DNA of 64,000 nt from Planctomycetota bacterium (GTDB lineage: Bacteria > Planctomycetota > UBA1135 > UBA2386): positions 4,800,001-4,864,000 of the forward strand of contig OZ245006.1 of assembly GCA_965223545.1 (NCBI GenBank). Direction: 5' to 3'. Shown piece by piece: positions 25,304 to 42,574 of the stretch. Position 1 is the stretch's first letter. Every line of letters starts with the position of its first letter. The notes beneath the pieces were generated by a model. That model searched no databases. It was not told the origin of the DNA and worked only from the letters and a program-made list of their open reading frames with translations. Both the position numbers and the translations under genes were made by a program.

Positions 25304-26200
25304 TCATTTTCGGGCGTCGAGCTCAGCGCGCACCGATCGGTACACGATCTCCTGGAAGCGATCGGGCTTCATGAACCCCGTGCCCCACGTCGCGTCCCAC
25401 TCGGCCGTGGGCTTTGCCGCCCGCACCTCGTCCAAGGTCTTGCCGTCGCGCACCAGATCGGCGAACCGCGCGTGGATCGTGCCCAGGACCTCGCGGTACT
25501 GCCGCAGCCCATCGCGGTCGGTCAGCTTGCCGTGGCCGGGAATGATCGCCGTCTCGCCGTCGGCGATCTCGAGCACGCGGTCGACGGCGGCGATCAGTCC
25601 GTGCAGAGTGCCCCCGCTGTCGAGATCGATGTAGGGAAAGGCGCCGTTGAAGAACACGTCGCCCATGTGGATCACGTTGCCGCGCCGAAACCACACGATC
25701 GCGTCCCCGTCGGTGTGCGCCGCCGAGACGTGGAAGATCTGCACGTCGTCGCCGTTGAGGTGCAGGGTCACGCCTCCCGCGAACGTCACCACGGGCAGCG
25801 CCTTGCTGTCGCCCGCCGCCCGCTCCCCGCCCTCGGCCAGCTGCTGCGCGGACATGCGCTTGCGCACGTTTTCATGCGCGACGATGACCGCGCCCGCGCG
25901 CCCGAACCGCTCGTTGCCGCCGGTGTGGTCGCCGTGGTGGTGCGTGTTGATCACGAACCGGATCGTAGTGTCCGTCAGCCGGGCAACCGCGGCGCGGATC
26001 TGCGGCACCATCGGCGCGAACTGGTCGTCGATCAAGAACGTCCCGTCCTCGCCGTAGCAGACACCGATGTTGCCGCCGCGCCCCTCGAGCATCGCCACCC
26101 CGTCCCGGATCGGCACGGTGTGAATCCGCGCGTCCCCCTGCGCGACCAACGGAGCGCACACGACCATCGCGACAGCCAGACAACTCGCAGAATGGAACAT
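25304..26200 (-). CDS. MBL-fold metallo-hydrolase (cyclase-like)
   Basis: Signal peptide, NTHHHGDHTGGN, AHTDGD, HMGD, IPGHG. Confidence 0.9.
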   Translation of the reverse strand: MFHSASCLAVAMVVCAPLVAQGDARIHTVPIRDGVAMLEGRGGNIGVCYGEDGTFLIDDQFAPMVPQIRAAVARLTDTTIRFVINTHHHGDHTGGNERFGRAGAVIVAHENVRKRMSAQQLAEGGERAAGDSKALPVVTFAGGVTLHLNGDDVQIFHVSAAHTDGDAIVWFRRGNVIHMGDVFFNGAFPYIDLDSGGTLHGLIAAVDRVLEIADGETAIIPGHGKLTDRDGLRQYREVLGTIHARFADLVRDGKTLDEVRAAKPTAEWDATWGTGFMKPDRFQEIVYRSVRAELDARK

Positions 26201-26299
26201 CCCCGAAGCCTACCGAAAGTACGGAGCCAGTCCTGCCCCGGCAGATTTGTCGGCCCTTCAGGGCAGGAAACTAGCCGCTGAGGAAGGGGGAGGGGAACG

Positions 26300-26464
26300 T
26301 GTGAGGGGCCCGGCAGCTACGCCCCCAATAGCCACTGGAGCACGTTTGCCCCAGAGCCAGTCTGGGTCCGAGTTGGCCATCCTTCACTGGTGAGGGGCAC
26401 GTCGCCGTGCCCACTCCCGCAGGTCAGATTCGTTTGATCGCCGCCTCGGGCCGGGCCCACCACA
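26300..26464 (+). ncRNA. Candidate IS110 bridge RNA (copy 1; limits approximate)
   Basis: Closing stem GGGCCCGGC 26306-14 / GCCGGGCCC 26450-58; hairpins CCCAGA-GCCAG-TCTGGG and GGGCACG-TCGC-CGTGCCC; exact junction matches GAGCCAGTC 26354-62 and CAGGTCAG 26420-27. Confidence 0.7.
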
Positions 26465-26480
26465 ACAATGAGGATGAAGT

Positions 26481-27863
26481 ATGGCTGGGAAGAGCAGAAC
26501 GAGGAAGGGCAAGAAGCCCGCAGCGGAAGTATTGCCAGTCGTGAAGCCCAACGCCGCCGGAATCGACATCGGCAGCCGCGAGCACTGGGTGTGCGCAGCA
26601 GCACCCGACGGCAGTCGTCCGATCAAGCGATTCGGAACGACGACGCCCCAGCTAGAGGCGCTCGCGGACTGGCTGGAGGAGCTCGGAGTGCGATCCGTCG
26701 CGATGGAGAGCACCTATGTCTACTGGATTCCCGTCTACGAGCTACTCGAGTCGAGAGGCTTCGAGGTCATCCTCGCGAATGCCCGCGAGGTGAAGAACGT
26801 GCCGGGCCGCTCCAAGTCCGATGCCAGCGATTGCAGTTGGCTGCAGAAGCTACACACCTATGGCCTCATTCGCGCTTCGTTCCGGCCTCCGAAGGACATC
26901 TGTGCGTTGCGGACCCTGCAACGCCATGCCGCGTCTTTGATCGCGCAGCGCACGCGCCACACGCAGTTGATGCAGCGGTCACTGGATCAGATGAACGTGG
27001 CGATCCATCGCGCGGTAACGGACATCACCGGCAAGACCGGCCTCGCGATCATCCGCGCGATTCTCGCTGGTGAACGCGACCCTCGAGCGCTCGCCAGACT
27101 GCGTGATCCGCGCTGCAAGATCTCCGAGAAGGAGCTCGCGGATCACTTGCAAGGGACCTGGATCGAGGAGCACATCTTCACTCTCGCTTCGGGCTTGCGG
27201 ATGCTCGAGCACACCGACCACGAGATCGAGTCGGTCGAGAAGCGATTGATGGCGATGATCGAGGACCTGCAACCGGAGGAAGCCAAGACGGCCGACGTCC
27301 CCGAGCATCCAGACCCCCGCAAGGAGAGGAGCATCCGAACGAAGGGCGGCCGGGAGCTTCGCGATGCCCTCTGCCGGCTCGTCGGGTGTGATCTCACGCG
27401 AATCGACGGTATCAGCCCGAGCACGGCCATGATCGTGCTCACCGAGGTCGGCTACGACCTCGAAGCTTTCCCGACCGAGAAGCACTTCGTCTCCTGGCTA
27501 CGCCTGTGCCCACGTCAAGCCGTCTCGGGTGGAAAGCGCATCAAGAAGCACCGCAACAACATCGCGGTCAGCAGGATCGCCACGGTCCTCCGGATGGCCG
27601 CCCTGTCCCTCCAACGTACTCAGACAGCTCTCGGCGCACACTTCCGCAAGATCGCCCGCGCGAAGGACGGCAACGTCGCCATCTTTGCCATCGCCCGCAA
27701 ACTGGCCCTGCTCATCTACCGCATGCTGAAGTTCGGCCAGGACTACGTAGACGAAGGCGCCAAGGCCTACGAGGAGCGCTTCACCCAGCGACGCATCGTC
27801 GGACTCCGACAGAACGCTAAATCCCTCGGGTACAAGCTCATACCGATCGCCGAGGCTGGGTGA
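26481..27863 (+). CDS. IS110-family transposase/recombinase (DEDD + Transposase_20), 460 aa
   Basis: GIDIG (D), AMESTYVYW (E), KSDASD (D..D); C-terminal IDGISP..EVG..F.TEKHFVSWLRLCP...SGGK with the catalytic Ser. Confidence 0.96.
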   Translation: MAGKSRTRKGKKPAAEVLPVVKPNAAGIDIGSREHWVCAAAPDGSRPIKRFGTTTPQLEALADWLEELGVRSVAMESTYVYWIPVYELLESRGFEVILANAREVKNVPGRSKSDASDCSWLQKLHTYGLIRASFRPPKDICALRTLQRHAASLIAQRTRHTQLMQRSLDQMNVAIHRAVTDITGKTGLAIIRAILAGERDPRALARLRDPRCKISEKELADHLQGTWIEEHIFTLASGLRMLEHTDHEIESVEKRLMAMIEDLQPEEAKTADVPEHPDPRKERSIRTKGGRELRDALCRLVGCDLTRIDGISPSTAMIVLTEVGYDLEAFPTEKHFVSWLRLCPRQAVSGGKRIKKHRNNIAVSRIATVLRMAALSLQRTQTALGAHFRKIARAKDGNVAIFAIARKLALLIYRMLKFGQDYVDEGAKAYEERFTQRRIVGLRQNAKSLGYKLIPIAEAG

Positions 27864-27871
27864 GTTTCAGG

Positions 27872-28018
27872 TCAGCAGACACCGATGTTGCCGCCGCGCC
27901 CCTCGAGCATCGCCACCCCGTCCCGGATCGGCACGGTGTGAATCCGCGCGTCCCCCTGCGCGACCAACGGAGCGCACACGACCATCGCGACAGCCAGACA
28001 ACTCGCAGAATGGAACAT
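27872..28018 (-). pseudogene. Duplicated 5' fragment (48 codons) of the MBL-fold gene
   Basis: 27874-28048 is identical to 26056-26230; reads MFHSASCL...GNIGVC, then a TGA created by the IS right end. Confidence 0.85.
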
Positions 28019-28048
28019 CCCCGAAGCCTACCGAAAGTACGGAGCCAG
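27874..28048. repeat. Direct duplicate of host segment 26056-26230 between IS copies 1 and 2
   Basis: Exact repeat at offset 1818; begins and ends with AG. Confidence 0.93.
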
Positions 28049-28117
28049 TCCTGCCCCGGCAGATTTGTCGGCCCTTCAGGGCAGGAAACTAGCCGCTGAG
28101 GAAGGGGGAGGGGAACG

Positions 28118-28282
28118 TGTGAGGGGCCCGGCAGCTACGCCCCCAATAGCCACTGGAGCACGTTTGCCCCAGAGCCAGTCTGGGTCCGAGTTGGCCATCC
28201 TTCACTGGTGAGGGGCACGTCGCCGTGCCCACTCCCGCAGGTCAGATTCGTTTGATCGCCGCCTCGGGCCGGGCCCACCACA
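28118..28282 (+). ncRNA. Candidate IS110 bridge RNA (copy 2)
   Basis: Same sequence as 26300-26464. Confidence 0.7.
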
Positions 28283-28298
28283 ACAATGAGGATGAAGT

Positions 28299-29681
28299 AT
28301 GGCTGGGAAGAGCAGAACGAGGAAGGGCAAGAAGCCCGCAGCGGAAGTATTGCCAGTCGTGAAGCCCAACGCCGCCGGAATCGACATCGGCAGCCGCGAG
28401 CACTGGGTGTGCGCAGCAGCACCCGACGGCAGTCGTCCGATCAAGCGATTCGGAACGACGACGCCCCAGCTAGAGGCGCTCGCGGACTGGCTGGAGGAGC
28501 TCGGAGTGCGATCCGTCGCGATGGAGAGCACCTATGTCTACTGGATTCCCGTCTACGAGCTACTCGAGTCGAGAGGCTTCGAGGTCATCCTCGCGAATGC
28601 CCGCGAGGTGAAGAACGTGCCGGGCCGCTCCAAGTCCGATGCCAGCGATTGCAGTTGGCTGCAGAAGCTACACACCTATGGCCTCATTCGCGCTTCGTTC
28701 CGGCCTCCGAAGGACATCTGTGCGTTGCGGACCCTGCAACGCCATGCCGCGTCTTTGATCGCGCAGCGCACGCGCCACACGCAGTTGATGCAGCGGTCAC
28801 TGGATCAGATGAACGTGGCGATCCATCGCGCGGTAACGGACATCACCGGCAAGACCGGCCTCGCGATCATCCGCGCGATTCTCGCTGGTGAACGCGACCC
28901 TCGAGCGCTCGCCAGACTGCGTGATCCGCGCTGCAAGATCTCCGAGAAGGAGCTCGCGGATCACTTGCAAGGGACCTGGATCGAGGAGCACATCTTCACT
29001 CTCGCTTCGGGCTTGCGGATGCTCGAGCACACCGACCACGAGATCGAGTCGGTCGAGAAGCGATTGATGGCGATGATCGAGGACCTGCAACCGGAGGAAG
29101 CCAAGACGGCCGACGTCCCCGAGCATCCAGACCCCCGCAAGGAGAGGAGCATCCGAACGAAGGGCGGCCGGGAGCTTCGCGATGCCCTCTGCCGGCTCGT
29201 CGGGTGTGATCTCACGCGAATCGACGGTATCAGCCCGAGCACGGCCATGATCGTGCTCACCGAGGTCGGCTACGACCTCGAAGCTTTCCCGACCGAGAAG
29301 CACTTCGTCTCCTGGCTACGCCTGTGCCCACGTCAAGCCGTCTCGGGTGGAAAGCGCATCAAGAAGCACCGCAACAACATCGCGGTCAGCAGGATCGCCA
29401 CGGTCCTCCGGATGGCCGCCCTGTCCCTCCAACGTACTCAGACAGCTCTCGGCGCACACTTCCGCAAGATCGCCCGCGCGAAGGACGGCAACGTCGCCAT
29501 CTTTGCCATCGCCCGCAAACTGGCCCTGCTCATCTACCGCATGCTGAAGTTCGGCCAGGACTACGTAGACGAAGGCGCCAAGGCCTACGAGGAGCGCTTC
29601 ACCCAGCGACGCATCGTCGGACTCCGACAGAACGCTAAATCCCTCGGGTACAAGCTCATACCGATCGCCGAGGCTGGGTGA
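28299..29681 (+). CDS. IS110-family transposase/recombinase
   Basis: Translation identical to 26481..27863. Confidence 0.96.
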   Translation: MAGKSRTRKGKKPAAEVLPVVKPNAAGIDIGSREHWVCAAAPDGSRPIKRFGTTTPQLEALADWLEELGVRSVAMESTYVYWIPVYELLESRGFEVILANAREVKNVPGRSKSDASDCSWLQKLHTYGLIRASFRPPKDICALRTLQRHAASLIAQRTRHTQLMQRSLDQMNVAIHRAVTDITGKTGLAIIRAILAGERDPRALARLRDPRCKISEKELADHLQGTWIEEHIFTLASGLRMLEHTDHEIESVEKRLMAMIEDLQPEEAKTADVPEHPDPRKERSIRTKGGRELRDALCRLVGCDLTRIDGISPSTAMIVLTEVGYDLEAFPTEKHFVSWLRLCPRQAVSGGKRIKKHRNNIAVSRIATVLRMAALSLQRTQTALGAHFRKIARAKDGNVAIFAIARKLALLIYRMLKFGQDYVDEGAKAYEERFTQRRIVGLRQNAKSLGYKLIPIAEAG

Positions 29682-29712
29682 GTTTCAGGTCAGGCTCCGT
29701 TTCATCACCTTG

Positions 29713-30930
29713 CTAGCCGCCGGATCCAAGCAGTTCGGTCAGCGCCGCCGCCAACTCCTCGTACTGGGAGAGGTCGTTGTACAGCTGCGCCGAAATGCGC
29801 AACGCCAGCCGCGGTGGCGCGGGCCACGGAAACACCGGCACCTGGATGCCGAAGTGCTTGGTCAGCGCGTGCCCCAGGGGCTCGACGTGCTGCCAGCTCC
29901 GCGGCCTGCTCGCGGTCGCGCCCGGCAACGGCAGGGTCGCCAGCGAGCCGATCAGCGCCTCTGGCGCCGGCGGCTCGATCTCGAGCGCGGCACAGAGGTG
30001 CGCGCGCGCCGCGAGCGCCAGCGCGCGGTTCTGAGCCCGCACCGCTGGCCAACCGCCGGGCAACAGACCGCCGATGCAGTCGATCGCATCGGGGACCGTC
30101 AGATACGCAGTGGGGTCGTGCGTGCCGGTCCAGTCGAACTCGGCGAGGAAGCGCGACCGGTCCGTCCGCTTGCCGCTGGCGCCGTGGCTGATCACGGTCG
30201 GTCGGACCTGCGCCTGCAGGTCACGCCGCACCCAGAGAAAGCCCGCCCCCTTGGGCGCGCAGATCCACTTGTGGCAGTTGCCGGTGTAGTAGGCGGCTCC
30301 CAGCGCGCGAAGGTCGAGCGCCAGCATGCCCGGGGCGTGCGCCCCGTCGACGAGTGTCTCGACGCCGCGCTCGCGCAACTCGCCGATCAGGATCTCCAGC
30401 GGCAAGACCAGCGCCGTCGGACTGGTGACGTGGTCGAGCAGCGCGAGTCGCGTCCGCTCGTTTGTCGCGGCGAGCACGACGTCGACGATCTCACCTGGGT
30501 CGCGGACTGGAAACGGCAGATCGACCACCGTGATCGTGGCGTCGTGCCGCGCCGCCACCTGGTCGAGCGCGTTGCGACACGCGTTGTAGGCATGGTTGGT
30601 GACCAGCAGGTCGTCGCCGGTCGACAACGGCATCGACTGCAGCACCGCGTTGACGCCCGTCGTGGCGTTGGCGACGAACGCGATGTCTTCGGCGTCGGCG
30701 CCGACGAAGTCGGCCAGCTTCCCGCGTGCTCGATCCAGCGCGGGCTCGAGCGTGTGCAGCATGAAGTGGACCGGCTCGCGCTCGAGCTCGTCACGCCAGC
30801 GCTGCTGCGCGTCGAGCACCTCGCGCGGACACGCACCGAACGAGCCGTGATTGAGGAACGTCACCTCGGGATCGAGGCTCCACAGGCGGCGCAGCCGCGC
30901 CGTCGTCGCGGGATCGAGCAGTGATGTCAC
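29713..30930 (-). CDS. Aminotransferase class V PLP enzyme (isopenicillin N epimerase / cysteine lyase-like)
   Basis: FLNHGSFGACP, NATTGVN, DHVTSPT, VDGAHAPG, GNCHKW. Confidence 0.9.
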   Translation of the reverse strand: MTSLLDPATTARLRRLWSLDPEVTFLNHGSFGACPREVLDAQQRWRDELEREPVHFMLHTLEPALDRARGKLADFVGADAEDIAFVANATTGVNAVLQSMPLSTGDDLLVTNHAYNACRNALDQVAARHDATITVVDLPFPVRDPGEIVDVVLAATNERTRLALLDHVTSPTALVLPLEILIGELRERGVETLVDGAHAPGMLALDLRALGAAYYTGNCHKWICAPKGAGFLWVRRDLQAQVRPTVISHGASGKRTDRSRFLAEFDWTGTHDPTAYLTVPDAIDCIGGLLPGGWPAVRAQNRALALAARAHLCAALEIEPPAPEALIGSLATLPLPGATASRPRSWQHVEPLGHALTKHFGIQVPVFPWPAPPRLALRISAQLYNDLSQYEELAAALTELLGSGG

Positions 30931-40836: not shown

Positions 40837-40875
40837 CGGCGCCGCCGGGTGATGAATCGGAGCCTGACCTGAAAC

Positions 40876-42258
40876 TCACCCAGCCTCGGCGATCGGTATG
40901 AGCTTGTACCCGAGGGATTTAGCGTTCTGTCGGAGTCCGACGATGCGTCGCTGGGTGAAGCGCTCCTCGTAGGCCTTGGCGCCTTCGTCTACGTAGTCCT
41001 GGCCGAACTTCAGCATGCGGTAGATGAGCAGGGCCAGTTTGCGGGCGATGGCAAAGATGGCGACGTTGCCGTCCTTCGCGCGGGCGATCTTGCGGAAGTG
41101 TGCGCCGAGAGCTGTCTGAGTACGTTGGAGGGACAGGGCGGCCATCCGGAGGACCGTGGCGATCCTGCTGACCGCGATGTTGTTGCGGTGCTTCTTGATG
41201 CGCTTTCCACCCGAGACGGCTTGACGTGGGCACAGGCGTAGCCAGGAGACGAAGTGCTTCTCGGTCGGGAAAGCTTCGAGGTCGTAGCCGACCTCGGTGA
41301 GCACGATCATGGCCGTGCTCGGGCTGATACCGTCGATTCGCGTGAGATCACACCCGACGAGCCGGCAGAGGGCATCGCGAAGCTCCCGGCCGCCCTTCGT
41401 TCGGATGCTCCTCTCCTTGCGGGGGTCTGGATGCTCGGGGACGTCGGCCGTCTTGGCTTCCTCCGGTTGCAGGTCCTCGATCATCGCCATCAATCGCTTC
41501 TCGACCGACTCGATCTCGTGGTCGGTGTGCTCGAGCATCCGCAAGCCCGAAGCGAGAGTGAAGATGTGCTCCTCGATCCAGGTCCCTTGCAAGTGATCCG
41601 CGAGCTCCTTCTCGGAGATCTTGCAGCGCGGATCACGCAGTCTGGCGAGCGCTCGAGGGTCGCGTTCACCAGCGAGAATCGCGCGGATGATCGCGAGGCC
41701 GGTCTTGCCGGTGATGTCCGTTACCGCGCGATGGATCGCCACGTTCATCTGATCCAGTGACCGCTGCATCAACTGCGTGTGGCGCGTGCGCTGCGCGATC
41801 AAAGACGCGGCATGGCGTTGCAGGGTCCGCAACGCACAGATGTCCTTCGGAGGCCGGAACGAAGCGCGAATGAGGCCATAGGTGTGTAGCTTCTGCAGCC
41901 AACTGCAATCGCTGGCATCGGACTTGGAGCGGCCCGGCACGTTCTTCACCTCGCGGGCATTCGCGAGGATGACCTCGAAGCCTCTCGACTCGAGTAGCTC
42001 GTAGACGGGAATCCAGTAGACATAGGTGCTCTCCATCGCGACGGATCGCACTCCGAGCTCCTCCAGCCAGTCCGCGAGCGCCTCTAGCTGGGGCGTCGTC
42101 GTTCCGAATCGCTTGATCGGACGACTGCCGTCGGGTGCTGCTGCGCACACCCAGTGCTCGCGGCTGCCGATGTCGATTCCGGCGGCGTTGGGCTTCACGA
42201 CTGGCAATACTTCCGCTGCGGGCTTCTTGCCCTTCCTCGTTCTGCTCTTCCCAGCCAT
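40876..42258 (-). CDS. IS110-family transposase/recombinase
   Basis: Translation identical to the other two copies. Confidence 0.96.
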   Translation of the reverse strand: MAGKSRTRKGKKPAAEVLPVVKPNAAGIDIGSREHWVCAAAPDGSRPIKRFGTTTPQLEALADWLEELGVRSVAMESTYVYWIPVYELLESRGFEVILANAREVKNVPGRSKSDASDCSWLQKLHTYGLIRASFRPPKDICALRTLQRHAASLIAQRTRHTQLMQRSLDQMNVAIHRAVTDITGKTGLAIIRAILAGERDPRALARLRDPRCKISEKELADHLQGTWIEEHIFTLASGLRMLEHTDHEIESVEKRLMAMIEDLQPEEAKTADVPEHPDPRKERSIRTKGGRELRDALCRLVGCDLTRIDGISPSTAMIVLTEVGYDLEAFPTEKHFVSWLRLCPRQAVSGGKRIKKHRNNIAVSRIATVLRMAALSLQRTQTALGAHFRKIARAKDGNVAIFAIARKLALLIYRMLKFGQDYVDEGAKAYEERFTQRRIVGLRQNAKSLGYKLIPIAEAG

Positions 42259-42274
42259 ACTTCATCCTCATTGT

Positions 42275-42439
42275 TGTGGTGGGCCCGGCCCGAGGCGGCG
42301 ATCAAACGAATCTGACCTGCGGGAGTGGGCACGGCGACGTGCCCCTCACCAGTGAAGGATGGCCAACTCGGACCCAGACTGGCTCTGGGGCAAACGTGCT
42401 CCAGTGGCTATTGGGGGCGTAGCTGCCGGGCCCCTCACA
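42275..42439 (-). ncRNA. Candidate IS110 bridge RNA (copy 3)
   Basis: Reverse complement of 26300-26464. Confidence 0.7.
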
Positions 42440-42574
42440 CGTTCCCCTCCCCCTTCCTCAGCGGCTAGTTTCCTGCCCTGAAGGGCCGACAAATCTGCCG
42501 GGGCAGGACTGGCTCCGTACGTGCGCCGAGAAAACGAACCGGACTCCGTTCGTCACGCGCCAGGAACTCTCCGT

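What the first reader, a model, noticed from the sequence alone, without database searches (positions are those of the whole stretch)
26231..26480. IS110 left end looks like a bridge RNA with readable target and donor guides (AG/CT core)
Seen: the element has a 250-bp non-coding left end and only 12 bp after the transposase stop. The left end contains GAGCCAGTC (26354-62), which equals the left target flank, the AG core and the first two element bases. It also contains CAGGTCAG (26420-27), which equals the element's right end plus core. Both segments place AG at the same register. Under uniform composition a given 8-mer is expected about 250/4^8 = 0.004 times in this region. GGAGC (26337-41) and GCCT (26443-46) are shorter possible partner guides. 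All lie inside a 9-bp closing stem (26306-14/26450-58) with internal hairpins. Established: IS110 elements such as IS621 encode a bridge RNA whose two loops base-pair with target and donor DNA around a 2-nt core. Inference: this is an RNA-guided recombinase with new specificity and a larger (460 aa) enzyme. If the CT strand is taken as top strand, the TC after GAGCCAG fits a handshake-type pairing with the donor. I cannot assign the loops unambiguously by eye.
Basis: partly seen in the sequence, partly recalled or inferred. Interest (0 to 1): 0.92.

Follow-up and report, generated by a model that had tools for sequence, protein, structure and literature searches.

The report
Bridge RNA in an IS110 element
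The left end of a 23-copy insertion sequence encodes a structured guide RNA of the already known bridge-RNA kind, with segments that spell out its insertion site and its own end, laid out in an unusual order.

Summary
Window 26231-27875 is a 1645-bp IS110-family element (23 full copies in the genome). It has a 250-nt non-coding left end and 12 bp after the transposase stop.

Across about 75 related elements the left end folds into a conserved two-domain RNA (30 of 35 pairs with compensatory changes).
- GAGCCAG (26354-60) tracks the left flank plus the AG core.
- CAGGUCAG (26420-27) tracks the right end plus the core.
- The following UC (26361-62) tracks the first bases of the element, as a handshake guide would.

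The real right-target guide is AGCC (26330-33).

Two features differ from IS621. The guide order within each loop is reversed, which is the IS1111-type order, although the RNA lies upstream of the gene. The second donor-loop segment (26379-86) does not match the left terminus. It covaries by identity with left-end positions +23..+30 (26253-60).

The target is a REP-like palindrome: 22 sites occupied, 85 empty. No RNA data exist. Verdict: a bridge-RNA element, a new variant of a known kind, of moderate interest.

The parts
26229..26230 (+). Core dinucleotide AG in the left flank. The same AG ends the element at 27874-75.
   Evidence: 23 of 23 copies are preceded by AG and end in AG. Nearly all aligned guides end in AG; a few distant homologues have AA.
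26231..27875 (+). IS110-family insertion sequence, 1645 bp. Identical copies lie at 28049-29693 (+) and 40864-42508 (-).
   Evidence: 23 full copies in the genome. Boundaries come from 23 flank pairs.
26238..26253 (+). Left-end hairpin CCGGCA-GAUU-UGUCGG. It may act in DNA or as the 5' stem-loop of the RNA. A hairpin is kept at this place in homologues although its sequence differs.
   Evidence: Left-end sequences of homologues. The 1646-bp variant has G>A at 26241 plus a T inserted after 26245, which gives a perfect stem.
26253..26260 (+). Subterminal left-end segment GCCCTTCA (positions +23..+30 of the element). It has the same sequence as the donor-loop 5' segment 26379-86 and covaries with it.
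   Evidence: At least 6 of 8 identical in 27 of 27 close-clade elements. Mean longest common substring 6.18 against 3.93 +/- 0.16 in shuffles, 0 of 2000 reached it.
26267..26271 (+). GAAAC, the inverted partner of GTTTC in the right end (a short subterminal inverted repeat).
   Evidence: GAAAC, GTAAC and ATAAC in left ends follow GTTTC, GTTAC and GTTAT in the right ends of homologues.
26305..26459 (+). Conserved core of the bridge RNA. The outer stem 26305-14/26450-59 encloses the two guide domains.
   Evidence: RNAalifold. Model R1 finds it in 82 places in 100 sources. 94.1% of cells paired and 30 of 35 pairs with compensatory change.
26321..26367 (+). Target-binding domain. The stem GCCC 26321-24 / GGGU 26364-67 encloses the 5' guide strand, hairpin A (26337-51) and the 3' guide strand.
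   Evidence: helices 2 and 3
26330..26334 (+). Right-target guide AGCC(A). AGCC pairs with top-strand G(core)-G-C-U of the target. A26334 lies opposite the core A, unpaired.
   Evidence: In register, 87 Watson-Crick pairs against 50.2 +/- 6.3 in shuffles, 0 of 5000 reached it. C26333 pairs with the core G in 91% of elements.
26354..26360 (+). Left-target guide GAGCC-AG. It has the same sequence as the left flank plus the core and would pair with the bottom strand.
   Evidence: The guide is 7 nt long: position -7 matches in 37 of 45 elements, position -8 in 5 of 44.
26361..26362 (+). Handshake guide UC, equal to the first two bases of the element.
   Evidence: First base identical in 37 of 45 (shuffles 22.5 +/- 3.0, 0 of 5000). 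Second base identical in 19 of 45 (11.2 +/- 2.8, 33 of 5000).
26368..26449 (+). Donor-binding domain. The stem CCGAG 26368-72 / CUCGG 26445-49 encloses the 5' segment, hairpin B (26392-99/26408-16) and the donor guide.
   Evidence: helices 4 and 7. Helix 6 (26376-79/26388-91) is weakly supported.
26379..26386 (+). Donor-domain 5' segment AUCCUUCA. It is not complementary to the left terminus and is identical to left-end positions +23..+30.
   Evidence: Complementarity to core plus left terminus: 44 pairs against 43.0 +/- 4.8 in shuffles. Identity to the subterminal segment has z about 14.
26420..26427 (+). Left-donor guide CAGGUC-AG. It has the same sequence as the right end plus the core.
26481..27863 (+). 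Recombinase gene, 460 aa.
   Evidence: Pfam DEDD_Tnp_IS110 and Transposase_20. NCBIfam NF033542, 'IS110 family RNA-guided transposase', 247.9 bits against a cut-off of 140. IS621 transposase 8wt6, E = 2.3e-10, with D/E/D/D and the SG serine aligned.
27864..27875 (+). Right end GTTTC-AGGTC-AG. GTTTC is the inverted-repeat arm, then 5 nt of donor, then the core.
   Evidence: The spacing GTT(T/A)(C/T)-N5-AG is kept in the right ends of homologues.

Best explanation
The 250-nt left end of this IS110-family element encodes a bridge RNA (also called seekRNA). This RNA programmes the 460-aa DEDD/serine recombinase to join the element's own ends to a REP-like palindrome, GTACGGAGCC-AG-GCTCCGTAC, at an AG core.

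The RNA has an outer stem and two pseudo-symmetric domains. Each is built as: stem, 5' guide strand, CUGG, hairpin, CCC/CCG, 3' guide strand ending in AG.

Target domain:
- The next two bases, UC, are a handshake guide for the first bases of the element.
- The 5' strand AGCC (26330-33) pairs with the top strand at core G plus GCU of the right target half.

The RNA has the same build as the IS621 bridge RNA: the 5' guides end in C(U/A), and the 3' guides end in AG followed by the handshake. Relative to the element's ends, however, it is read on the other strand. The core is AG, not CT, on the sense strand. The top-strand complement therefore lies 5' of the bottom-strand match, which is the order described for IS1111-type seekRNAs, although here the RNA is upstream of the gene.

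Shown here: conservation and covariation of the structure, and covariation of four guide segments with DNA.

Inferred, not shown: that the RNA is made, that it binds the recombinase, and the order of strand cleavage. The role of the fifth covarying segment (26379-86, matching left-end +23..+30) is unexplained. My best guess is a second contact with the donor's left arm on the same DNA strand that the donor guide reads.
For: Element and protein:
- 23 copies with clean boundaries; 22 of 23 lie in one palindromic site in one orientation.
- Recombinase domains and aligned catalytic residues.

RNA structure:
- Consensus structure from 10 homologues.
- On 73 distinct sequences, 94.1% of cells are paired and 30 of 35 pairs show a change on both sides. 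The covariation score is 0.444 against 0.161 in shuffles (0 of 500 reached it) and at most 0.065 when partners are slid by 1-3 columns.

Guide covariation:
- LTG: own 7-mer found upstream in 42 of 61 elements, against 0.48 with a foreign 7-mer. There are 50 distinct 7-mers.
- LDG: 44 of 53 against 0.75, with 29 distinct 7-mers.
- Handshake: 37 of 45 against 22.5 +/- 3.0.
- RTG: 87 pairs against 50.2 +/- 6.3, 0 of 5000 reached it, with cases of 7-8 of 8 pairs in register (L039, L171, L083).

Comparison with published architectures:
- IS621 (passages read): LTG on the 5' side of the loop, RTG plus handshake on the 3' side, core CT.
Against: - There is no RNA evidence. No RNA run holds the sequence, and no sigma-70-like promoter or terminator was found in 26100-26560.
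- Rfam 15 has no match in 25900-30000 even at E up to 10, so membership in a curated RNA family could not be checked.
- Alignment A3 is fitted to the model's structure, and the homologues are related. Both inflate shuffle-based figures.
- In this element the RTG pairing is only 4 bp. In many single-copy homologues it is poor.
- No guide for the left terminus itself was found beyond the 1-2 nt handshake. Donor recognition is therefore not fully accounted for.
Confidence: 0.88

Rival explanations
1. The left end is only a promoter or 5' leader. The repeats of flank and end sequence inside it are chance, or are protein-binding DNA sites.
For: No RNA data. No family match in Rfam.
Against: The base-paired structure is kept through compensatory changes in 30 of 35 pairs. 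The two segments change together with flank and end in dozens of elements that carry 50 and 29 different 7-mers. Foreign 7-mers are found about 0.5-0.75 times in the same windows.
Confidence: 0.03
2. The segment 26379-86 is a true second donor guide. [quoted passage not shown] Both donor-loop guides then read the same DNA strand (the one carrying CT at the core), on either side of the conserved left-end hairpin.
For: - Identity that covaries through about 11 different variants at a nearly fixed place. At least 6 of 8 bases match in 27 of 27 close-clade elements, and most begin at +23.
- No match to the right end, the flanks or the complement of the left end.
- No complementary partner inside the RNA.
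- Preprints report single-strand (copy-out) circles for IS621 and CazIS110 (section 6 read; abstract read).
Against: - In IS621 the 5' donor guide pairs with the other strand, directly at the core.
- A guide 22 bp from the crossover on the same strand has no known structural precedent.
- The identity extends weakly into neighbouring conserved bases (..GGUGA), which could point to a duplicated protein or RNA motif instead.
- The signal is unclear in the distant clades, where alignment is poor.
Confidence: 0.3
3. The left-end segment +9..+45 is part of the transcript, as a 5' leader. It is a partial copy of the 5' half of the donor loop and is kept identical for an RNA-level reason, such as competition for the same protein pocket or an alternative fold. 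It is not a DNA site.
For: IS621 bridge RNA starts close to the left terminus and has a 5' stem-loop. A structurally conserved hairpin precedes the identical segment.
Against: No complementary third partner was found. The transcription start is unknown.
Confidence: 0.25
4. By descent the element belongs with the IS1111 family (seekRNA order, subterminal inverted repeats). It is one of the rare members whose non-coding region lies upstream, rather than a member of the IS110 group proper.
For: The guide order is the IS1111-type one (against passages). There is a short inverted repeat, GTTTC/GAAAC. Exceptions with an upstream non-coding region are reported, for example ISMtsp17 (passage).
Against: - IS1111 repeats are 11-13 bp, with terminal extensions of 7 and 3 bp (passage). 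Here the repeat is 5 bp, with extensions of about 36 and 7 nt.
- The only solved relatives found are IS621 and ISCro4, but no IS1111-type structure may exist to compete with them.
- I built no phylogeny with named references.
Confidence: 0.3

Closest known systems
IS621 bridge RNA and recombinase (IS110 group; Durrant 2024, Hiraizumi 2024)
   Same: - DEDD plus serine recombinase.
- RNA encoded in a long left end upstream of the gene, with a very short right end.
- Two pseudo-symmetric internal loops, each with a distal hairpin.
- 3' guides end in AG and are followed by a 2-nt handshake guide; 5' guides end in C(U/A).
- A 2-nt core is included in every pairing.
- The target is a REP-type repeat.
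   Different: - The core reads AG, not CT, on the sense strand. Within each loop the guide identical to the upstream DNA is therefore on the 3' side, where IS621 has it on the 5' side.
- The longer guides (7-8 nt) are the 3' ones.
- The 5' donor segment does not match the terminus and matches left-end +23..+30 instead.
- The protein is 460 aa against 326-328, with weak sequence similarity (E = 2.3e-10).
- No Rfam or other curated model was available for comparison.
IS1111-type seekRNAs (ISEc11, ISPa11, ISKpn4; Siddiquee 2024)
   Same: The segment complementary to the top strand precedes the bottom-strand match. Subterminal inverted repeats are present. Some members (ISPa11) target REP sequences.
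   Different: There the non-coding region is downstream of the gene, the repeats are 11-13 bp and the terminal extensions are 7 and 3 bp. Here the RNA is upstream and the repeat is 5 bp.
ISEc21 seekRNA (IS110 type; Siddiquee 2024)
   Same: Upstream non-coding region that gives a recombinase-bound guide RNA.
   Different: ISEc21 has the top-strand match 3' of the bottom-strand match. That is the opposite order to this element.
ISPpu10 (preprint 10.64898/2026.03.19.712850, abstract read)
   Same: All insertions fall in one conserved intergenic repeat able to form a stem-loop. The element is associated with local amplification.
   Different: Here the insertion point is at the centre of the palindrome. 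Whether the stem-loop is itself recognised was not tested. The only hint is that 0 of 19 non-REP GAGCCAGGCT sites are occupied, against 22 of 107 REP-type sites.

Membership tests
IS110-family RNA-guided (bridge/seekRNA) recombinase elements, broad sense | DEDD RuvC-like domain plus Tnp domain with a catalytic serine | tested here: met
   Pfam PF01548 (E = 1.3e-26) and PF02371 (E = 4.7e-14). NF033542 at 247.9 bits against a cut-off of 140. The alignment to IS621 8wt6 keeps GID, ME(S/A)T, SD..D and the SG serine.
IS110-family RNA-guided (bridge/seekRNA) recombinase elements, broad sense | No terminal inverted repeats. Site-specific insertion flanked by a repeated 2-nt core. | tested here: met
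   23 of 23 copies have AG on both sides. 22 of 23 lie in the same site and the same orientation.
IS110-family RNA-guided (bridge/seekRNA) recombinase elements, broad sense | Structured non-coding RNA in the long non-coding end | tested here: met
   Covarying consensus structure. The structure is shown; transcription is not.
IS110-family RNA-guided (bridge/seekRNA) recombinase elements, broad sense | RNA loop segments that covary with the target and with the element's own ends | tested here: met
   LTG 42 of 61, LDG 44 of 53. RTG. Handshake.
IS110-family RNA-guided (bridge/seekRNA) recombinase elements, broad sense | The RNA is expressed, binds the recombinase and is required for recombination | not testable with these tools
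   No RNA run is listed for this sequence.
IS621-type bridge RNA (IS110 group) | [quoted passage not shown] The 3' side pairs with the top strand (4-7 nt). | tested here: not met
   Here the 3' sides (26354-60, 26420-27) are identical to the top strand, and the 5' side of the target loop is complementary to it. The definition comes from the passages read.
IS621-type bridge RNA (IS110 group) | Both donor-loop guides pair next to the core at the joined right and left ends | tested here: not met
   The right-end guide meets this. The other donor segment shows no complementarity to the core plus left terminus (44 against 43.0 +/- 4.8).
IS621-type bridge RNA (IS110 group) | Handshake dinucleotide 3' of the 3'-side target guide, matching the non-cognate DNA | tested here: met
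   37 of 45 and 19 of 45.
IS621-type bridge RNA (IS110 group) | Promoter rebuilt across the joined right and left ends of the circle | tested here: inconclusive
   No consensus promoter in the integrated copy. By eye the joined ends give at best 6 of 12 matches, and the relevant bases are not conserved in homologues. I ran no tool scan of a joined sequence.
IS1111-type seekRNA elements | Top-strand complement lies 5' of the bottom-strand match in the RNA | tested here: met
   RTG 26330-33 precedes LTG 26354-60. The definition comes from the passage read.
IS1111-type seekRNA elements | Long non-coding region downstream of the gene | tested here: not met
   12 bp downstream and 250 nt upstream.
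IS1111-type seekRNA elements | Subterminal inverted repeats of 11-13 bp, with terminal extensions of 7 and 3 bp | tested here: not met
   Only GTTTC/GAAAC (5-6 bp), lying 7 nt from the right terminus and about 36 nt from the left.

The most novel reading that the evidence does not exclude
In this clade the donor loop grips one and the same DNA strand at two places. One is the right end plus the core (26420-27). The other is a site 22 nt inside the left end (26379-86 matching +23..+30), beyond a conserved hairpin. That strand carries CT at the core, which is the strand published models say is cut and transferred first. The donor loop would then be built to hold a single-stranded or locally unwound and hairpinned donor. 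This is a donor-recognition geometry not seen in IS621.
Probability: 0.15. Interest if true: 0.7.

Novelty: new variant of a known kind. Interest (0 to 1): 0.42.

Why it matters
Bridge recombinases are being developed as programmable DNA-insertion tools, so each natural system with readable guides adds a possible orthologue. This one comes with an unusually complete natural data set: 23 copies, about 107 target sites, and dozens of relatives with different guides.

Its RNA shows that the IS621-like loop build can be used with the element turned round relative to the core strand. That links the IS110-type and IS1111-type layouts.

The covariation between the donor loop and a site 22 nt inside the left end suggests that donor recognition is not the same throughout the family. 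This bears on how minimal donors should be designed. If the segment turns out to be a mere duplicate motif, the element is an ordinary new member.

Tried and rejected
- Rfam 15 scan of 25900-30000 at E up to 10: only chance-level hits (HOTAIR_2, PK-BYV) and no bridge-RNA family.
- Public sequencing runs: no RNA holder listed.
- Contigs of four DNA runs laid on 26200-27960. In X1 and X2 one contig each runs from upstream DNA through the 172-bp segment into the left end without a break. No listed piece bridges the right end into the duplicated segment. Depth per copy is about 3 and 19 pieces were not shown. The tandem duplication is therefore neither confirmed nor refuted.
- Promoter and terminator scan of 26100-26560: none found.
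It is a conserved motif.
- My own idea that the 5' arm of hairpin B is complementary to left-end bases 3-9 (seen in WIN, L025, L030, L032): not significant over all elements (z = 0.2).
- Segment 26379-86 against right end, both flanks, complement of the left end, and the rest of the RNA: nothing at z of 3.5 or more. The highest was right flank, identity, z = 3.4.
- Handshake after the donor guide against the right flank: weak (14 of 44 against 9.2 +/- 1.9).
- Model R1 on an enterobacterial plasmid relative (43% protein identity, L180): no hit with default filters. By eye the upstream region looks related but diverged.
- Earlier findings of this scan: none for this genome.
- I built no phylogeny with named IS references, because none could be fetched by name.
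- Supplementary tables of Durrant 2024 and Siddiquee 2024 were not opened. They may already list this clade.

Full report
**What is there.** Window 26231-27875 (+) is a 1645-bp insertion sequence. Its single gene (26481-27863, 460 aa) carries the two Pfam domains of IS110-family transposases. It matches NCBIfam's 'IS110 family RNA-guided transposase' at 247.9 bits against a cut-off of 140. It also aligns weakly to the solved IS621 and ISCro4 transposases (E = 2.3e-10 and 2.7e-9), with the acidic residues and the SG serine in register.

The left end is 250 nt long, and 12 bp follow the stop. The 8.1-Mb genome (69.7% G+C) holds 23 full copies and one 111-bp fragment. Seventeen copies are 1645 bp and six are a 1646-bp variant; none of the 12 variable positions lies in a guide segment.

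All 23 copies are preceded by ...GAGCC-AG. Twenty-two are followed by GCTCC.... The site is the centre of a REP-like palindrome, TGAAnGTACGGAGCC-AG-GCTCCGTACnnTCA. A further 85 unoccupied GGAGCCAGGCTCC sites exist.

**The observation.** Within the window they recur only at the junctions and left ends of the three IS copies, apart from two stray copies of the 8-mer. The 9-bp closing stem is real.

**Homologues.** Protein-guided scans gave 75 loci from genomes and 80 from metagenomes, the best 80 of 224. Protein identity to the query ranges from 33 to 78%.

A first mechanical test was already telling. In most of 56 loci with both ends present, a 7-9-nt exact match links the bases just after the stop codon with a site 33-80 nt before the start codon. 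The matched sequence differs from clade to clade, for example CAGGTCAG, CTGGTTAG, CACACTAG, TGGAGAGT, TTAGGAGA, TATAGAAG and CTGGCAGTA.

**RNA structure.** Ten close homologues align well over the left end. RNAalifold gives three features:
- an outer stem;
- a first domain closed by GCCC/GGGU;
- a second domain closed by CCGAG/CUCGG.

A covariance model built from this alignment found 43 hits in 76 sources and 82 hits in 100 sources. On the 73 distinct aligned sequences:
- 94.1% of cells are paired;
- 30 of 35 pairs have compensatory changes;
- the covariation score is 0.444, against 0.161 for shuffles (0 of 500 reached it) and at most 0.065 when partners are slid.

The alignment is fitted to the model and the sequences are related, so these figures are generous. 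The signal is nevertheless far beyond the controls. One helix (26376-79/26388-91) is weak.

**Guides.** The two domains are pseudo-symmetric. Each is built as: 5' variable strand, CUGG, hairpin, CCC/CCG, 3' variable strand ending in AG.

I took the 7-mer at the aligned position of 26354-60 from each of 75 non-identical hits. I then asked whether it occurs in the 105 nt upstream of the RNA.
- It does in 42 of the 61 elements with a complete window.
- With another element's 7-mer the mean is 0.48 (maximum 4).
- For the position of 26420-27, searched in a 340-nt window at the 3' end, the figures are 44 of 53 against 0.75 (maximum 4).
- There are 50 and 29 distinct 7-mers respectively.

For the later counts I kept only the 48 elements (45 distinct RNAs) in which both ends were located with at least 6 and 7 matching bases and a plausible length. 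The rest were dropped: truncated contigs, broken genes and distant clades with poor alignment.

Results on this set:
- The target guide is exactly 7 nt. Position -7 matches in 37 of 45, position -8 in 5 of 44.
- The base after it equals the first base of the element in 37 of 45 (shuffles 22.5 +/- 3.0, 0 of 5000). The next base does so in 19 of 45 (11.2 +/- 2.8, 33 of 5000).
- The 5' strand of the first domain is complementary, in a fixed register, to the top strand at core G plus the right flank. There are 87 Watson-Crick pairs against 50.2 +/- 6.3 (0 of 5000). Individual elements reach 7-8 of 8 pairs.
- In this element that guide is AGCC (26330-33), only 4 bp. That equals the native IS621 right-target guide, 4 bp in the passage read.

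Neither it nor the variable stretch before it relates to any flank.

**Comparison with known systems.** I read passages of Durrant 2024, section 12 of that paper, and passages of Hiraizumi 2024.

[quoted passage not shown] The 3' side pairs with the top strand and is followed by the handshake dinucleotide. The core is CT. Here the 3' sides are identical to the top strand, and the core is AG on the sense strand.

Seen from the RNA, nothing has changed: 5' guides end in C(U/A), and 3' guides end in AG plus a handshake. Seen from the element, the RNA-plus-gene cassette is turned round relative to the strand that carries CT.

Distant relatives with core AA (equal to TT on the other strand) fit the IS621 rule that the T is the invariant core base.

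Siddiquee 2024 (passages read) reports exactly such a reversal between IS1111-type seekRNAs (top-strand complement first) and the IS110-type ISEc21. It also notes rare IS1111 relatives with an upstream non-coding region. This element combines an upstream RNA with the IS1111-type order and a short inverted repeat, GTTTC (27864-68) / GAAAC (26267-71).

I could not place the protein in a tree with named references. Whether it is a turned-round IS110-group element or an IS1111 relative therefore stays open.

**The unexplained part.** By symmetry, the 5' strand of the donor domain (AUCCUUCA, 26379-86) should be complementary to the core plus the left terminus. It is not: 44 pairs against 43.0 +/- 4.8 in shuffles.

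Instead it has the same sequence as positions +23..+30 of the left end (26253-60), and the two change together.
- The mean longest common substring is 6.18 against 3.93 +/- 0.16 (0 of 2000).
- At least 6 of 8 bases are identical in 27 of 27 close-clade elements, through about 11 variants of the middle bases.
- The site starts between +21 and +30, in most elements at +23. It lies just after a structurally conserved hairpin and 4-6 nt before GAAAC.
- In the 18 more distant elements the match is 5-7 of 8 and the alignment is unreliable.
- There is no relation to the right end, the flanks or the complement of the left end, and no complementary partner inside the RNA.

Identity means the RNA segment could pair with the bottom strand there. 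That is the same strand read by the right-end guide and by the handshake.

Two preprints argue that IS621 and CazIS110 move through a copied-out single strand (section 6 read; abstract read). A donor loop holding one strand at two places would fit that, but this is speculation.

The alternative is that the segment is part of a 5' leader that mimics the loop. Nothing I could compute separates the two.

**Mechanism, with what is shown and what is inferred.**
- Shown: element boundaries, target site, RNA structure, and covariation of five RNA segments with DNA.
- Inferred from the IS621 and seekRNA literature: the RNA is transcribed from the left end, possibly best from the circular form. It binds the recombinase. 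Its first domain reads the palindromic target and its second reads the joined ends. Strands are exchanged at the AG/CT core.
- Unknown: promoter, RNA ends, strand order, and the role of the hairpin and of +23..+30.

**Verdict.** The other two assignments were wrong. The class is well known, so the finding is not categorically new. The turned-round layout and the subterminal covariation make it a variant worth a specialist's look.

Noticed in passing
window 26056-29693: There is an exact tandem duplication of an 1818-bp unit, made of 172 bp of upstream flank plus the IS. The first copy's right end is joined to CAGACACC at a site CCGTAG|CAGACACC. That site shares only AG with the normal target. 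A preprint reports repeat-unit boundaries of this kind, matching only the donor's right end (section 8 read). Public contigs neither confirm nor refute the duplication.
   Followed up: partly
window 40864-42508 (- strand): A third identical copy of the IS lies in the window, in an equivalent palindromic site.
   Followed up: partly
genome G000, e.g. C1:58679, 723507, 769842: The genome holds a REP-like repeat family, TGAAnGTACGGAGCC-AG-GCTCC..TTCATCAC. 85 copies are empty and 22 are occupied by the IS, always in one orientation. The 19 GAGCCAGGCT sites outside the repeat are all empty, a weak hint that the palindrome itself matters.
   Followed up: partly
L129, L130 (1684-1853), L107, L108, L136 (2142-2309), L154, L028; also L052, L110, L123: In 11 of 53 relatives the left flank looks like the right end of a sibling element (GTT(T/A)C-N5-AG after a stop codon), and it matches the resident target guide. 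Only 38 of 20000 random 12-mers fit the same pattern. Some family members therefore target the ends of other members, which gives head-to-tail arrays.
   Followed up: partly
window 26241 and 26245/46 (left-end hairpin); variant copies e.g. G000:C1:517070: The 1646-bp variant (6 copies) differs by G>A and one added T in the left-end hairpin. This turns CCGGCA/TGTCGG into a perfect CCGACA/TGTCGG stem, so the hairpin seems to be under selection.
   Followed up: no
L030 (right end near 2577): The right end of this relative carries GGGCAAG. That equals its target guide and left flank, not its donor guide (GGGTCAG). The end may have been exchanged with a target-like site, or the element may be inactive.
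   Followed up: no
G000:C1:988112-988222: A solitary 111-bp fragment of the transposase gene (element positions 268-378, 98% identical) lies here.
   Followed up: no
L180 (Citrobacter freundii IncF plasmid record, 883-2223): Relatives at about 43% protein identity sit on conjugative plasmids of Citrobacter, Klebsiella and Enterobacter. Model R1 does not detect their left end, though by eye it has similar motifs.
   Followed up: partly
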